Of a stretch of DNA of 64,000 nucleotides, positions 2,701-61,383 are shown one piece after another; the stretch's first letter is position 1, and every line of letters starts with the position of its first letter. The stretch spans positions 23,748-87,747 of the forward strand of contig JBAZLA010000004.1 in the NCBI GenBank assembly GCA_041650515.1, written 5' to 3'. Source of the DNA: Patescibacteria group bacterium. GTDB lineage: Bacteria; Patescibacteriota; Patescibacteriia; JACRDY01. The notes below the pieces were generated by a model that was given only the letters and a program-made list of their open reading frames with translations, did no database searches and was not told the DNA's origin. The position numbers and the translations under genes are program-made.

Positions 2701-2761
2701 CTTGTCAAGTAAAAAACCCGCCGTCCTGGTGGCGACGGGTCATCAACCACTACTACTCTAG

Positions 2762-2998
2762 CTAAGTTTTCTTGAGTATAACCGCTGGAAAAAACTCCCA
2801 ACAGCCAAGACAAAACTTAGCCCAAGTGATGATTCTCTCCAGAAAATCCGGGTTGAGCTCCACGGCTAGCTTAATAACCAGGCTATTATCCTGGCAGCTG
2901 ACCGCGAGGGTGTAGCTCTCGATATTGAGAATCAAAAGTAGCACCAATTGGCACAACACCAACAAGACTATCAAGGTGGTGCAAAGATTCCGCTTCAT
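2762..2998 (-). CDS. Hypothetical small membrane protein
   Basis: 78-aa ORF with a hydrophobic N-terminus (TLIVLLVLCQLVLLLILNI). A weak hairpin plus T-run follows at 2712-2745 on the minus strand. Confidence 0.3.
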   Translation of the reverse strand: MKRNLCTTLIVLLVLCQLVLLLILNIESYTLAVSCQDNSLVIKLAVELNPDFLERIITWAKFCLGCWEFFPAVILKKT

Positions 2999-3441
2999 GG
3001 CTCCCCTCCTGGTGATATTTGTTAACGAACTAAAACGCCCAACTGTCTCAAGCTGGGCATCTTTGGGGAACCAATATCAAATAATCTAACCTCGCAGTAA
3101 TAACCAACCCATAAAAATGCCGAGCTTGAAACAGGCAGCCGCCACCAAGACATGCTTGGGGCGCAAAGACAGCCGGCTTTTGGACAAAGCTTTTTCTTGG
3201 GCTAATAAATTTTGATCATCAAATATCATCATATGGATACTCTTCTATTCTTTTAGACGAACTAACAGCCAAAATGTTACAAAAAAACACCCCTTACTAT
3301 TTGAGATGTCCTTTTGGTGAAACACCGTAGAGGAAGTTAGAACTATTATTCAAAGACAAAATAAATATATTTATATACCAAACTTAGTGGCACGGTTTAA
3401 GTAAATTTGTAGAAAACTGTTCTATCCCGTTTGTTCACTGC

Positions 3442-43652: not shown

Positions 43653-43955
43653 TTATTCTTCGCCTTCAAAAACTCCCCTGACTTTAATTAGGTTGTCTTG
43701 ATGCTCCGGCCAATTGTCCTTAATTGACTGACTAACCAACGGATCTTTGGTCGCTGATTCGTCAGCGCGGCTAACATCTTCTAGCCCAGTCACCTGAAAA
43801 GTCGGCGCCACTTTGCTCGTATCCACTTCTTTAAGCTGTTCGACATAATCTAAAATCGCCGAAAGTTGTTTGGCAAATTTCTTTTTTTCATCGGCAGTTA
43901 GATCAATTGCCGCCAGCTTGGCAATATGTTCAACGTCTTTTTGACTTAATTTCAT
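43653..43955 (-). CDS. gatC: Glutamyl/aspartyl-tRNA amidotransferase subunit C
   Basis: 100 aa, immediately upstream of gatA. Confidence 0.8.
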   Translation of the reverse strand: MKLSQKDVEHIAKLAAIDLTADEKKKFAKQLSAILDYVEQLKEVDTSKVAPTFQVTGLEDVSRADESATKDPLVSQSIKDNWPEHQDNLIKVRGVFEGEE

Positions 43956-44111
43956 AAAATAAACAAAATAAAGGTTAGACTTATTATAACAAACTTAGGT
44001 TGATTAATAAATACGATCATCTGCCTCACCCATTGACATAAAACAAGAAACTAACTAAAGTAAAATATTAACCAGAAAACTACTTCCCAAGCCCAAAGGA
44101 GGGCAAAAAAA

Positions 44112-44480
44112 ATGAAATCAGTTACCATTGTCAGCGCTATTGGTAGGTCGGCAACACCGCACCTACAGATTAACCAAGACTACTACGACACCCTGGCAGA
44201 GTTGATCAAGACCCAACTCGCCAGTCCTCAGATCGCGATCAAGATTGTGTCTGATATCACCGCGCTGGAAGTCTTGCCCTGTGGTCAAAACAAACTCCAA
44301 GCCGTGATCTTTGTCTCCAGCGGCATGCTGGACGAAGCCAAACAGCTTCGCCAGCAACACCCCGAACTCACGGTGGTGGTGTTGAGCGGTGAGATTCCGG
44401 CCGGCGAGATCGTTCACATTAACATCGGCTGGGGGCTATCCCCGGAGATATTTCAACGAATCGTCAGCGCCGCCAACTGA
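44112..44480 (+). CDS. GC-rich orphan alpha/beta protein, paralog 1 (function unknown)
   Basis: 122 aa. RBS aaggaggg 8 nt upstream; own terminator. Codon usage visibly GC-rich against an AT-rich background. Paralogous to the next gene. Confidence 0.5.
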   Translation: MKSVTIVSAIGRSATPHLQINQDYYDTLAELIKTQLASPQIAIKIVSDITALEVLPCGQNKLQAVIFVSSGMLDEAKQLRQQHPELTVVVLSGEIPAGEIVHINIGWGLSPEIFQRIVSAAN

Positions 44481-44482
44481 CC

Positions 44483-44516
44483 CCTACGGACAGCCCAGCC
44501 TGCCCGTTCTTTTTAT
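44483..44516 (+). terminator. Rho-independent terminator of orphan paralog 1
   Basis: cggacagc-ccagc-ctgcccg + UCUUUUUAUUU. Confidence 0.6.
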
Positions 44517-44596
44517 TTAATGTCAAAACCTTTATTGCTCTTATTCAGATAGTGTGGTTAAATATAAAATCACGTCGGAAAAGGAGGGAGAATCAA

Positions 44597-44980
44597 ATGC
44601 TAATTGCCATCGTCGAGCAAACCAACCTCAACAACCAAACCGACCAGCGATACACCGGGATGATCGAAAATCTCAGCCAGCGGCTCGCCGATCATGACAA
44701 CATCATCGTCCAGGTGATGCCAACGGTTGAAATGGCCAAAAGAATGATCACTCAAATTAGATTTTCCGCCATCATCTTTGTTTCGGGCTATATGGTTAAA
44801 CCGGCTCGAGAGCTAGCCCTGGCGATTCGTCGCCAAGGTCTGACCACCAAGGTCATTACGCTCGAAGGGGCGATGGTGGTCGAAGCCCAAATGAATGAGC
44901 CGATCATCCGACTCGACAAGGTGGCGGCATCAGCCAACAACTGCCGAGAACTCATCCGGGCCATCTGCCGGGCAAACTGA
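44597..44980 (+). CDS. GC-rich orphan alpha/beta protein, paralog 2
   Basis: 127 aa from ATG 44597 (RBS aaaaggaggg). Shares IAIVEQT, AIIFVSGYMV and L..A..LR.Q....T..V..L.G with paralog 1. Near-identical terminator module. Confidence 0.5.
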   Translation: MLIAIVEQTNLNNQTDQRYTGMIENLSQRLADHDNIIVQVMPTVEMAKRMITQIRFSAIIFVSGYMVKPARELALAIRRQGLTTKVITLEGAMVVEAQMNEPIIRLDKVAASANNCRELIRAICRAN

Positions 44981-45013
44981 CGGACAGCTCCTTCGCTGCC
45001 CGTTTTTTTATTT
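44979..45013 (+). terminator. Rho-independent terminator of orphan paralog 2
   Basis: cggacagc-uccuuc-gcugcccg + UUUUUUUAUUU. Confidence 0.6.
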
Positions 45014-45363
45014 GACGACCTTATTAATCTTTGTTAGTTTACTAAAAGAGCGAACATTTATTTTTGGCGAAAACAATGGGCTCGCTGGGAAATGAGACTA
45101 AGTCTTTAGGAGAACTGCCGACCTCCTATCCGGTAACCCATCCCCCACCGGAATTTCCTGGTAACCCGTTCTGCCCGTCGGCGGCTTCAGGCCGGGGGCT
45201 GCTGGAGGGTTATCGTTTTTGCCAATTTGTGGGTGTTTCTTCCACCCGCGATTGCCACACCAAACTTTAGAAGTCTTAGCGAGGTCTGGGGCTCATAACC
45301 CCGGTTGAGGTCCATCGCTCGGCCTCATTGCCAGGGACGCAAATTCCCTCTTCTGGAGTGGCT

Positions 45364-45406
45364 CAGGATTCCGACCCTTGGTCAACGGAATCCTTTTTGT
45401 TTTTTA
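45364..45406 (+). terminator. Strong rho-independent terminator ending a GC-rich non-coding stretch
   Basis: aggauuccg-acccuuggucaa-cggaauccu + UUUUUGUUUUUU. Confidence 0.6.
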
Positions 45407-45415
45407 TAAATAACA

Positions 45416-45502
45416 CACAGTCCATAGTACCCAGTACACAGATATAAGAACCCACCGACGGTGGGTTTTGATTACTATGGACTAGGTACTCGGTACTGTG
45501 GA

Positions 45503-45505
<3 letters not shown>
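45416..45505. repeat. X1: about 90-nt direct-repeat element (gtac-rich imperfect inverted arms around a central GC hairpin), copy 1
   Basis: cagtccatagtacccagtacacag..aacccaccgacggtgggtt..ctatggactaggtactcggtactgtggac. Abuts the ligA stop codon. Homologous to 60655-60760. Confidence 0.55.
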
Positions 45506-47557
<2,052 letters not shown>

Positions 47558-60654: not shown

Positions 60655-60760
60655 ATTATAGTACGTAGTACCTAGTACACAGTACATAGAAATTTAACAC
60701 CACCAACGTTGGGTTATAAATCACTATGTACTAGGTACTGTGTACTCGGTACTGATTAAA
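60655..60760. repeat. X2: about 100-nt repeat element, copy 2, same orientation as X1
   Basis: tagtacgtagtacctagtacacagtacatag..aacaccaccaacgttgggtt..cactatgtactaggtactgtgtactcggtactg. Shares blocks with X1: agtacc(c/t)agtacacag, aac(c/a)cacc(g/a)acg(g)tgggtt, ctatg(g/t)actaggtact, ctcggtactg. Confidence 0.55.
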
Positions 60761-60953
60761 AACTCGCCGTCCAGATAACCATGGTAAAAACAATAACAAT
60801 CGTCAGAATGATCCAAATGATTTTTTCTAGTTTTTTCTTTTTGATCTTCATAATGTTAAATAGTCTTTAAATTATTGACAGTAGTATTTTTAAAGAGGAT
60901 ACTATAAATATTACTTGAAATATCACTTAAATTGCAACAGGAGGGTATTTATC

Positions 60954-61325
60954 ATGGCCAGCAAACGGTTAGCCGAAGTTTTGAAAAAAATCAAGAGAAT
61001 GCCTCTGCCAACGCGGGAGCAGAACGAGAATTTTTCCCACTTACCCCAGAAAGATCCCCGGGTCCGACTCTGGATGGTGCTGACTGACATCGATCACCCT
61101 TGGCACAGCGAAGGAGAAGTCAAGGTTCCTCGGATGAGCCAAGAAACTGCCAGACGACTACTTCGCTCCTGGCGATCCATCAAGGCTAACGCCACTCGTC
61201 GGTGTCGCGCCCTGCCCGATGACGATCCGAGAAAAATACTCGCGAGTGCAAAAACTTCCCATCCGCTTACCTGGACCGTCACGGTGATGGAGATGACGGT
61301 GGAAGGAGCTGCGGCATTCAAATAA
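60954..61325 (+). CDS. GC-rich orphan protein (Arg-rich, function unknown), plus strand
   Basis: 123 aa from ATG 60954 (RBS caggaggg). Arg/Trp-rich (RRLLRSWRSIKANATRRCRALPDDDPRK). GC-rich codons. Own terminator. Confidence 0.4.
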   Translation: MASKRLAEVLKKIKRMPLPTREQNENFSHLPQKDPRVRLWMVLTDIDHPWHSEGEVKVPRMSQETARRLLRSWRSIKANATRRCRALPDDDPRKILASAKTSHPLTWTVTVMEMTVEGAAAFK

Positions 61326-61354: not shown

Positions 61355-61383
61355 CCAATCGCCATCCTGGCGATTTTTTTTAA
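61355..61383. terminator. Hairpin terminator (aatcgcca-tcc-tggcgatt + T8) shared by the orphan gene and convergent lepA
   Basis: gccaatcgccatcctggcgatttttttt. Confidence 0.6.

What the first reader, a model, noticed from the sequence alone, without database searches (positions are those of the whole stretch)
44030..45013. Only plus-strand genes in the window: a GC-rich tandem pair of paralogous small alpha/beta proteins with duplicated RBS and terminator modules
In a genome where essentially all genes are on the minus strand and AT-rich, two paralogous ORFs (122 and 127 aa) run on the plus strand with GC-rich codon usage. Each has a strong AGGAGG-type RBS and a near-identical terminator (cggacagc..gcugcccg + U-run). 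This indicates horizontal acquisition followed by duplication of a complete expression module. The fold is predicted as strand-helix alternation (VTIVSAIG, AVIFVSSGML, TVVVLSGE), which could be STAS- or receiver-like, but no family is recognisable. This is a candidate novel two-paralog system of unknown function.
Basis: partly seen in the sequence, partly recalled or inferred. Interest (0 to 1): 0.6.

Follow-up and report, generated by a model that had tools for sequence, protein, structure and literature searches.

The report
Foreign small-gene cassettes in a CPR genome
Two small genes of unknown function sit backwards between two housekeeping genes of a tiny-genome (Patescibacteria) bacterium and carry foreign signatures (GC-rich codons, a ribosome-binding site the host's own genes never use), so they are imported accessory genes, one example of several in this genome, not a recognisable new system.

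Summary
The two plus-strand ORFs are real: 44112-44480 (122 aa) and 44597-44980 (127 aa). They are compositionally foreign. GC3 is 0.667 and 0.664, against 0.368±0.036 for 60 host genes. Both have AGGAGGG-N8-ATG, while 0 of 60 host genes have GGAGG upstream.

They interrupt a ligA→gatC junction that is conserved across Patescibacteria. No relative carries them.

They are distant paralogs (23% identity). The link is secured by the only other family member found among about 15 billion proteins (P0003). No Pfam, PDB, PHROG, PADLOC or NCBIfam match exists. Low-confidence models suggest a generic flavodoxin/receiver-like α/β fold. The receiver phospho-acceptor Asp position appears to hold a conserved Ser.

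- They are not the only plus-strand genes. A third cassette with the same SD design lies at 60954-61325, and more lie nearby.
- The shared RBS is a feature of the whole cassette class, not evidence of duplication.
- The roughly 57-nt terminator module is far better conserved than the coding sequence, so it was copied or homogenised later.
- Duplication probably predates the transfer.

An ORF-less GC-rich unit (45046-45402) and a palindromic repeat adjoin the pair. Function remains unknown. Verdict: moron-like imported cassettes of moderate interest.

The parts
44033..44061 (+). Promoter-like site for ORF1 (TTGACA-17-TAAAGT)
   Evidence: Consensus scan gives 10 of 12 matches. This is a consensus match only, and transcription has not been shown.
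44095..44103 (+). Shine-Dalgarno AAAGGAGGG, 8 nt before the ORF1 ATG
   Evidence: Read from sequence. 0 of 60 host genes have GGAGG within 20 nt upstream of the start.
44112..44480 (+). ORF1, 122 aa (WC480_03525). Protein-coding. Predicted α/β protein in a family with only three known members.
   Evidence: Codon-phase GC is 0.57/0.37/0.67. It is homologous to P0003, which sits in an AT-rich genome. No Pfam, PDB, PHROG, PADLOC or NCBIfam hit. The AF2 model has pLDDT 49 with an alternating β/α pattern.
44486..44516 (+). Terminator-like hairpin 1 (ACGGACAG-CCCAGC-CUGCCCGU plus UCUUUUU) with an A·C mismatch
   Evidence: Motif search finds 2 matches with 0 expected. Fold ΔG is -6.9 kcal/mol. Not called by the terminator scan.
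44535..44563 (+). Possible promoter for ORF2 (TTGCTC-17-TTAAAT, with TG upstream of the -10)
   Evidence: Read from sequence. It falls below the scan threshold, so it is weak.
44580..44588 (+). Shine-Dalgarno AAAGGAGGG, 8 nt before the ORF2 ATG
44597..44980 (+). ORF2, 127 aa (WC480_03530), a distant paralog of ORF1
   Evidence: Codon-phase GC is 0.56/0.37/0.66. BLASTP against ORF1 gives E=3e-4. Smith-Waterman score against P0003 is 100, versus 27.8±4.9 for shuffles. AF2 model pLDDT 56.
44980..45012 (+). Terminator-like hairpin 2 (ACGGACAGC-UCCUUC-GCUGCCCGU plus U7) with the same A·C mismatch
   Evidence: ΔG -12.3 kcal/mol. Together with about 25 nt downstream it aligns to the ORF1 3' module with local score 24, versus 9.0±1.65 for shuffles.
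45046..45402 (+). ORF-less, GC-rich (54.5%) unit downstream of ORF2. It ends in a plus-strand intrinsic terminator (GGAUUCCG...CGGAAUCC plus U-run, about 45365-45402). Candidate structured RNA or decayed cassette.
   Evidence: No codon periodicity: 0.56/0.53/0.54. Fold z is -4.1 on the plus strand and -1.8 on the minus strand, but the ORF1 coding sequence also reaches z -3.8. Terminator ΔG -14.9 kcal/mol. No Rfam hit. No homolog found by blastn or by a covariance model in related loci.
45409..45507 (.). Palindromic repeat of about 95 nt with AGTACNN heptad arms and a central GC hairpin, immediately after the ligA stop. It bounds the island.
   Evidence: Inverted repeat I1. A second copy at 60660-60754 is 76% identical over 80 nt, E=2.5e-11.
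60954..61325 (+). ORF3, 123 aa (WC480_03615). A third plus-strand cassette of the same class, unrelated in sequence to ORF1 and ORF2.
   Evidence: AGGAGGG-N8-ATG and GC3 0.58. A TTGACA promoter-like site near 60878 and a terminator at about 61358-61381 with ΔG -12.9 kcal/mol. It forms a single-member cluster.
60660..60754 (.). Second copy of the AGTACNN palindromic repeat, adjacent to the ORF3 cassette

Best explanation
ORF1 and ORF2 are genuine protein-coding genes that arrived by horizontal transfer. They are part of a roughly 1.4-kb island (ORF1, ORF2 and an ORF-less GC-rich unit). The island lies in reverse orientation in the spacer of the otherwise conserved ligA→gatCA cluster of a Patescibacteria (CPR) bacterium.

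Each gene resembles a moron-like, self-contained expression unit. It has a σ70-type promoter-like site, a canonical AGGAGGG Shine-Dalgarno 8 nt from the ATG, and its own hairpin plus U-run terminator. These would insulate it from the convergent host operon.

The pair is one instance of a class. About 84 kb of this genome holds at least five small (73-127 aa) SD-led, GC3-rich singleton genes, whereas the host's own genes have no SD.

The two proteins are old, highly diverged paralogs of an almost unsampled family with three known members. The duplication most likely happened in the donor lineage (inferred). The terminator and downstream module was copied or homogenised later (inferred).

The shared roughly 90-residue core has an alternating β/α pattern. 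It most likely forms a flavodoxin/receiver-like sandwich, in which the position of the receiver phospho-Asp holds an invariant Ser. I therefore propose, with low confidence and by inference only, that they act as phosphorylation-independent binding or adaptor modules, not as enzymes or a two-component relay.
For: CODING
- Codon-phase GC periodicity is clear.
- P0003 conserves the protein sequence while having host-like AT-rich codons, GC3 0.36.

FOREIGN ORIGIN
- GC3 is 0.667 and 0.664 against 0.368±0.036, and no host gene exceeds 0.458.
- An SD is present in both ORFs and in 0 of 60 host genes.
- Published work reports that many Parcubacteria lack the anti-SD motif (PMC9297842).

INSERTION
- ligA→gatC are adjacent on the same strand in 85 of 161 related loci, usually 22-260 bp apart. 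Here the gap is 1547 bp.
- No ORF1/ORF2 homolog appears in any of about 160 related loci.

NEAR-ORPHAN STATUS
- The search of 5.8 billion protein clusters returned only self-hits.
- Exhaustive HMMER over 1.84 billion representatives added only P0003, at E=9e-5.
- A profile search added only proteins that share P0003's unrelated tail.

CLASS OF CASSETTES
- In the window, 4 of the 5 SD-led ORFs of at least 45 aa are GC3-high. A fifth GC3-high, SD-led ORF lies in the flanking sequence.
- About 50 relatives' loci show almost none.

AUTONOMOUS UNITS
- Promoter scan and terminator folds.

FOLD
- DSSP pattern is β-α-β-α-β-α-β.
- The best, non-significant Foldseek hits are the AdiA wing domain, several REC domains, Ago MID and PTS IIB.

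NOT AN ASSEMBLY ARTEFACT
- The same junctions appear in an ENA 472-kb contig and in a separate Logan assembly.
Against: - No donor, integrase, flanking direct repeats or phage genes were found, so the transfer mechanism is unknown.
- If the host really lacks an anti-SD sequence, the SD cannot function, and expression is unproven.
- The fold assignment rests on single-sequence AF2 models (pLDDT 49 and 56) and on Foldseek hits with E≥0.02.
- hhalign against the window's own receiver protein gives 0.1% probability.
- The promoters of ORF2 and of the ORF-less unit fall below the scan threshold.
- With only three family members the tree cannot be rooted. A recent duplication followed by very fast divergence is therefore not excluded.
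- The adaptor function is pure inference.
Confidence: 0.55

Rival explanations
1. One gene was acquired horizontally and the whole promoter-RBS-ORF-terminator module was then duplicated in place. The result is a functionally coupled two-paralog system.
For: The genes are in tandem in the same orientation. They share AAAGGAGGG-N8-ATG and the ACGGACAGC...CTGCCCGTT terminator. Their GC3 values are equal.
Against: - The coding sequence is saturated: 23% amino-acid identity and 36.5% third-position identity, close to the roughly 29% I estimate from third-position composition.
- GC3 nevertheless shows no amelioration towards the host's 0.37.
- Each ORF is closer to P0003 than to the other ORF.
- The RBS design is shared with the unrelated ORF3 and with other cassettes.
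- Separate terminators argue against operonic coupling.
Confidence: 0.2
2. The island is a conflict module (defence, anti-defence or toxin-antitoxin-like). The two small proteins would work with the adjacent structured RNA.
For: - It is a variable island of rapidly diverging singleton paralogs with an adjacent ORF-less structured unit.
- The only relative, P0003, is a mosaic. Its 3' 219 bp are 98.6% identical to the 3' end of a HEPN-like gene. This kind of domain swapping is typical of conflict loci.
Against: - No PADLOC, PHROG or Pfam hit.
- The genes do not overlap and are not co-transcribed.
- The RNA's fold z-score is matched by the ORF1 coding sequence, and it has no homologs.
- The HEPN link concerns P0003's tail, not the domain it shares with ORF1 and ORF2.
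Confidence: 0.12
3. The genes are native and lineage-specific. Their SD and GC-rich coding sequence would serve a special translational control, as with the SD-led bS21 gene in Bacteroidetes (recalled from my own knowledge, not checked in a paper here).
For: SD-led genes form a small, distinct set in a genome that otherwise lacks SD. All were called as genes by NCBI.
Against: - They are absent from every relative at the syntenic site.
- A GC3 shift of about 8 sd is not explained by translational control.
- An 826-aa opposite-strand gene has host-like composition and no SD, so strand alone does not explain the signal.
Confidence: 0.08
4. The region is not protein-coding. The ORFs would be chance reading frames inside a GC-rich structured-RNA island, or the island would be an assembly chimera.
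For: - GC-rich islands in AT-rich genomes are often RNA genes.
- The ORF1 region folds with z -3.8.
- Relatives carry opposite-strand tRNAs at this site.
Against: - GC2 is 0.37 and GC3 is 0.67, a strong codon periodicity.
- Protein-level homology to P0003 holds despite a different codon composition.
- The SD is correctly spaced.
- Two assemblies give identical junctions.
- No Rfam hit.
Confidence: 0.05

Closest known systems
Phage 'morons': independent promoter-gene-terminator units with deviant GC content (Cumby, Davidson and Maxwell 2012, PMC3594210)
   Same: Each is a self-contained unit with its own promoter-like site and intrinsic terminator. GC content clearly differs from the neighbours. 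Each is an obvious 'extra' insertion between conserved genes, and the cargo is small and of unknown function.
   Different: The insertion is between chromosomal housekeeping genes, not inside a prophage. No phage genes lie within about 84 kb. There are no phage or viral-contig homologs.
Response-regulator receiver (CheY-like, PF00072) and pseudo-receiver domains
   Same: The size is about 120 aa and the β/α pattern alternates. REC domains, the atypical phosphorylation-independent HP1043, and the receiver-like AdiA wing domain are among the top Foldseek hits. hhalign picks the receiver register, placing the invariant Ser69 at the phospho-Asp position.
   Different: There is no Pfam hit even at E≤10, and hhalign probability is 0.1%. 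In my alignment, Ser replaces the acceptor Asp, and the acidic pair at the end of β1 is absent in ORF1. All structural hits are non-significant and come from low-confidence models.
STAS / anti-sigma-factor antagonist domains (SpoIIAA-like, PF01740)
   Same: It is a small α/β protein. The F-V-S-S-G-M motif loosely recalls the DSSG phospho-Ser motif. That comparison comes from memory only and is a lead, not a test.
   Different: There is no Pfam hit. An extra β-α unit lies between helix 1 and the Ser-bearing strand, so the predicted topology does not fit STAS (inference). No partner kinase or phosphatase is nearby.
Integron gene cassettes
   Same: The ORFs are short, same-orientation singletons, each followed by a similar imperfect hairpin.
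   Different: The hairpins are about 24 nt followed by a U-run, whereas attC sites are 57-141 bp (size range from my own knowledge). I could not read the R''/R' core sites (RYYYAAC / GTTRRRY) at the hairpin flanks. No integrase appears in the gene tables. Each ORF has its own promoter-like site and SD.

Membership tests
Response-regulator receiver domain (PF00072) | Significant match to the family profile | tested here: not met
   Pfam hmmscan at E≤10 returns no Response_reg hit for ORF1, ORF2 or P0003. hhalign of the three-sequence profile against the window's own receiver protein gives probability 0.1%.
Response-regulator receiver domain (PF00072) | Phospho-acceptor Asp at the C-terminal end of β3, plus an acidic pair after β1 | tested here: not met
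   In the only register offered (and my reading of alignment A2), the position holds the invariant Ser69 in the motif F-[VI]-S. After β1, ORF1 has AIG, while ORF2 and P0003 have VEQ. The alignment itself is not statistically supported.
Response-regulator receiver domain (PF00072) | (βα)5 flavodoxin-like fold | tested here: inconclusive
   AF2 single-sequence models have pLDDT 49 and 56 and show β-α alternation. Best Foldseek PDB hits have E 0.02-0.08 and include REC domains and the AdiA wing domain. None reaches E≤0.001.
STAS domain (PF01740) | Profile match, and β-hairpin/α1/β3-(D)SSG topology | tested here: not met
   No Pfam hit at E≤10. The predicted secondary-structure order has an extra β-α unit before the Ser motif.
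Phage moron | Own promoter and own factor-independent terminator | tested here: inconclusive
   The ORF1 promoter-like site scores 10 of 12, but the ORF2 site is below threshold. Both terminators are hairpin plus U-run, with ΔG -6.9 and -12.3 kcal/mol and an internal mismatch. No transcript data are available.
Phage moron | Base composition deviating from the neighbours | tested here: met
   GC3 is 0.667 and 0.664 against 0.368±0.036.
Phage moron | Located within a phage or prophage genome | tested here: not met
   The flanks are gatCA and ligA. No phage-type Pfam families appear in about 84 kb of gene tables. No matches in phage or viral collections.
Integron gene cassette | attC recombination site and a nearby tyrosine-recombinase integrase | tested here: not met
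   The hairpins are short terminators in which I could read no R''/R' core sites. No integrase is among the called genes.
Known anti-phage defence systems (PADLOC-DB) | Match to any defence-protein model | tested here: not met
   No hit at E≤1 for ORF1, ORF2 or P0003.

The most novel reading that the evidence does not exclude
This CPR genome has no SD-based initiation and may lack the anti-SD sequence. It nevertheless hosts a dispersed population of autonomous mini-cassettes. Each has a promoter, AGGAGGG at a fixed spacing, a GC3-rich small singleton ORF and a terminator.

The novel reading is that these cassettes insert next to long palindromic hairpins by an unrecognised mechanism that needs no integrase. 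The ORF1/ORF2 family (pseudo-receiver-like) and the adjacent 350-nt structured RNA would then form a functional unit of that element. Alternatively, the cassettes would be translated only under a special ribosome state.
Probability: 0.12. Interest if true: 0.7.

Novelty: new variant of a known kind. Interest (0 to 1): 0.38.

Why it matters
- If the reading is right, this shows ongoing influx of foreign, self-expressing small genes into a streamlined episymbiont-type genome, at conserved housekeeping junctions.
- The imported genes carry translation signals that the recipient does not otherwise use. This gives a concrete test case for how, or whether, SD-led genes are expressed in Parcubacteria reported to lack the anti-SD motif (PMC9297842).
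- The result also defines a new protein family that is almost unsampled, with three members among about 15 billion proteins.
- On present evidence the pair is accessory cargo of unknown function, not a new mechanism.

Tried and rejected
FAMILY ASSIGNMENT. All searches were negative: Pfam, NCBIfam, PHROGs, PADLOC, and PDB by sequence, both single-sequence and profile.

STRUCTURE
- Both AF2 jobs had to run without a usable alignment and gave low confidence.
- Foldseek against PDB and BFVD gave nothing at E≤0.001.

HOMOLOG EXPANSION
- Three word-index searches and one exhaustive HMMER run added only P0003.
- The profile hits P0004 and P0005 match only P0003's unrelated C-terminal tail.

PHAGE OR PLASMID ORIGIN
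- blastn and tblastn against phage and plasmid collections found nothing.
- The viral-contig protein scan was negative.

TERMINATOR MOTIF AS A MOBILE REPEAT
- There were 17 single-copy hits in viral contigs, which by my rough estimate is in the range expected by chance.
- No extra copy occurs in the 40 kb of flanking sequence.

IDENTITY OF THE 45046-45402 UNIT
- No Rfam family matched.
- ARAGORN finds only a tRNA-Met-like element at a relaxed threshold.
- I found no tmRNA, RNase P or SRP features by reading the sequence.
- A single-sequence covariance model found no homolog in 47 sources.
- The 'third decayed paralog' idea was rejected: tblastn finds nothing, and the 21-nt similarity to the ORF2 3' end lies behind a stop codon.

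INSERTION SIGNATURES. No convincing direct repeats or terminal inverted repeats flank the island.

FOLD Z-SCORE AS PROOF OF AN RNA GENE. This was downgraded after the ORF1 coding sequence gave z -3.8 as a control.
Full report
SOURCE AND ANATOMY

The window comes from a 472.5-kb contig of a Patescibacteria (CPR) metagenome-assembled genome. The region between gatC (43653-43955, minus strand) and ligA (45503-47542, minus strand) is 1547 bp long. NCBI annotates them as WC480_03525 and WC480_03530.

The same junctions appear in an ENA assembly and in a separate Logan assembly. An assembly chimera is therefore unlikely.

THE COMPOSITIONAL CLAIM HOLDS AND IS STRONG

- The 60 minus-strand ORFs of the window have GC3 0.368±0.036, with a maximum of 0.458.
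- ORF1 and ORF2 have GC3 0.667 and 0.664, about 8 sd away.
- Their GC by codon phase is 0.57/0.37/0.67, a typical coding periodicity.

A second, independent marker emerged from the start-site context:
- Both ORFs have AAAGGAGGG exactly 8 nt before the ATG.
- None of the 60 host genes has GGAGG within 20 nt of its start. Their upstream regions are plain AT-rich sequence.
- Published work reports that the anti-SD motif is detectable in only 48% of Parcubacteria, and that SD helices probably do not form in those lineages (PMC9297842).
- The 16S rRNA is not in the window, so I could not test this for the present genome.

THE ISLAND IS AN INSERTION

- ligA followed by gatC on the same strand occurs in 85 of 161 related loci fetched from genome and metagenome collections.
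- The two genes are usually 22-260 bp apart.
- The nearest relatives have only 60-70% LigA identity, so this organism is poorly sampled.
- In those relatives the spacer is variable. It often holds opposite-strand tRNA genes of different identities: Trp, Thr, Phe, Leu, and intron-bearing tRNAs.
- None of the related loci contains a homolog of ORF1, ORF2 or the downstream ORF-less unit.

THE FAMILY IS REAL BUT ALMOST UNSAMPLED

- Direct ORF1-ORF2 similarity is marginal: BLASTP E=3e-4, 23% global identity, and 2 of 2000 shuffles reach the score.
- Word-index searches of 5.8 billion protein clusters returned only self-hits.
- Exhaustive HMMER over 1.84 billion representatives added one protein, P0003 (126 aa, E=9e-5).
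- P0003 aligns strongly to both ORFs, with Smith-Waterman scores of 112 and 100 against 28±5 for shuffles. This secures homology by transitivity.
- P0003 lies on a 1.25-kb AT-rich contig and has host-like GC3 of 0.36. The conservation is therefore at the protein level, which confirms that the window ORFs are coding.
- The shared core covers roughly residues 6-91. Its motif is Q-x5-[AS]-[VI]-[IV]-F-[VI]-S-x-x-M...A-[KR]...V-[VI]-x-[LF]-x-G.
- P0003's last 35 residues and the DNA downstream are 98.6% identical over 219 bp to the 3' end of a HEPN-like gene. P0003 is therefore a mosaic.

FOLD AND FAMILY MEMBERSHIP

- Pfam, NCBIfam, PHROGs, PADLOC and PDB sequence searches gave nothing.
- AF2 had to run on single sequences and gave low confidence, pLDDT 49 and 56. 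It did show a β-α-β-α-β-α-β pattern.
- Foldseek hits are all non-significant (best E 0.02-0.04). They are dominated by flavodoxin-like α/β domains: the AdiA wing domain, several receiver domains including the phosphorylation-independent HP1043, Ago MID and PTS IIB.
- hhalign against the window's own response regulator picks the receiver register, with invariant Ser69 at the phospho-Asp position, but at only 0.1% probability.
- Conclusion: the proteins plausibly resemble a pseudo-receiver or flavodoxin-like module, but they are not demonstrable members of the receiver or STAS families.

DUPLICATION HISTORY

- The coding sequences are saturated: 42% nucleotide identity and 36.5% third-position identity.
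- Each ORF is closer to P0003 than to the other ORF.
- Both ORFs keep identical, unameliorated GC3.
- The simplest reading is that the paralogs split long ago and arrived together, or arrived from the same kind of donor.
- In contrast, the stop codon, the terminator and about 25 nt downstream align with local score 24 against 9.0±1.65 for shuffles. Both hairpins share the same A·C mismatch.
- This non-coding module must therefore have been copied or homogenised later, or be under sequence-specific constraint. I cannot say which.
- As plus-strand terminators the hairpins are modest (ΔG -6.9 and -12.3 kcal/mol). They fold better on the minus strand (-13.4 and -16.7 kcal/mol), where the mismatch becomes a G·U pair. 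This is unexplained.
- The RBS is not evidence of duplication, because unrelated cassettes in the same genome use the same design (see below).

THE PAIR IS NOT UNIQUE IN THE WINDOW

- A third plus-strand gene, ORF3 (60954-61325, 123 aa, WC480_03615), lies between lepA and recJ. It has AGGAGGG-N8-ATG, GC3 0.58, a TTGACA promoter-like site and its own terminator.
- A 78-aa minus-strand ORF (2762-2998) has GC3 0.63, an SD and a terminator. It lies upstream of rplJ.
- A 73-aa opposite-strand ORF with GC3 0.72 and an SD, plus a GC-rich neighbouring ORF, lie just beyond the window.
- In the window, 4 of the 5 SD-led ORFs of at least 45 aa are GC3-high. About 50 loci from relatives show almost none.
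- An 826-aa opposite-strand gene has host-like composition and no SD. Strand alone is therefore not the marker.

NEIGHBOURING FEATURES

Downstream of ORF2 lies an ORF-less unit at 45046-45402:
- It is 54.5% GC and shows no codon periodicity.
- It ends in a clean plus-strand terminator with ΔG -14.9 kcal/mol.
- It folds better on the plus strand (z -4.1) than on the minus strand (z -1.8).
- As a control, the ORF1 coding sequence reaches z -3.8, so the fold statistic is not decisive.
- It has no Rfam match and no homolog in relatives.
- It is either a novel structured RNA or a decayed cassette.

Between this unit and ligA is a palindrome of about 95 nt built from AGTACNN heptads (45409-45507). 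Its only other copy in the window (60660-60754, 76% identical) lies next to the ORF3 cassette. This co-localisation is suggestive but rests on two cases.

VERDICT

The 'only plus-strand genes' claim and the 'duplicated expression module after acquisition' narrative are not supported.

The best description is a set of moron-like imported mini-cassettes in a CPR genome that does not use SD. ORF1 and ORF2 are two old paralogs of a new, nearly unsampled α/β family.

Function is unknown. My working hypothesis of a phosphorylation-independent receiver-like adaptor is inference only. Interest is moderate. The SD and anti-SD mismatch and the cassette class as a whole are more noteworthy than the pair itself.

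Noticed in passing
window 45046-45402 (+): An ORF-less, 54.5% GC unit with a weak promoter-like site (TTGACG-17-TAGTTT at 45012-45040) and a strong plus-strand terminator. It predicts a multi-branch fold (z -4.1 on plus, -1.8 on minus). It has no Rfam family and no homolog in relatives. At a relaxed threshold ARAGORN calls a tRNA-Met-like element at 45264-45338, with a GGGGCUCAUAACCCC anticodon-arm look-alike.
   Followed up: partly
window 45409-45507 and 60660-60754: Two copies of a palindromic repeat of about 95 nt, 76% identical, built from AGTACNN heptads with a central GC hairpin. Each lies next to a plus-strand GC-rich cassette island. The closest relative, L004, has a different heptad-built long hairpin in its ligA-gatC spacer.
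   Followed up: partly
window 60954-61325 (+): A third plus-strand cassette, ORF3 (123 aa, WC480_03615), lies between lepA and recJ. It has AGGAGGG-N8-ATG, GC3 0.58 and its own terminator at about 61358-61381. It forms a single-member cluster and has only a sub-threshold Pfam hit (MDMPI_N, E=0.011).
   Followed up: partly
window 2719-3010 (-): A 78-aa SD-led (AGGAGGG-N5-ATG) ORF with GC3 0.63 and a hydrophobic N-terminus, followed by a classical terminator (ACCCGTCGCC...GGCGGGTTTTTT). It sits in the 883-bp ORF-poor gap upstream of rplJ. It belongs to the same cassette class but lies on the host strand.
   Followed up: no
L185 20139-20525 (same contig, just beyond window position 1): A 73-aa opposite-strand membrane-like ORF with GC3 0.72 and AGGAGGG-N6-ATG. 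A second GC-rich opposite-strand ORF sits beside it, and each has its own terminator-like hairpin. This is another tandem cassette pair.
   Followed up: no
whole window, and L184/L185: Host genes lack any Shine-Dalgarno: 0 of 60 have GGAGG upstream. rplJ-rplL (2034-2558 and 1612-2013) have no rplK or rplA directly upstream. This is reminiscent of the uL1-lacking, anti-SD-lacking Parcubacteria described in PMC9297842.
   Followed up: partly
L005, L006, L010, L085, L087, L090, L093 (ligA-gatC spacers of relatives): The spacer is a hotspot for opposite-strand RNA genes. tRNAs of different identity (Trp, Thr, Phe, Leu) and intron- or insert-bearing tRNAs occur there. Long ORF-free GC-enriched stretches also occur, for example 1.7 kb in L087. 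The L005 spacer is bracketed by inverted GGGGAGAGGGG-type repeats.
   Followed up: partly
L003 827-1045, L182 1179-1396, L183 588-809: P0003 is the only relative of ORF1 and ORF2. Its last 35 codons plus about 110 bp downstream are shared at 98.6% DNA identity with a 208-aa HEPN-like protein (RNYIAH motif; Pfam HEPN_RiboL-PSP E=0.007). It is a mosaic in which different N-terminal domains carry a common 3' module.
   Followed up: partly
window 44478-44520 and 44972-45016: The two shared terminator hairpins are markedly more stable on the minus strand (-13.4 and -16.7 kcal/mol) than on the plus strand (-6.9 and -12.3 kcal/mol). The conserved A·C mismatch becomes a G·U pair on the minus strand.
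   Followed up: no
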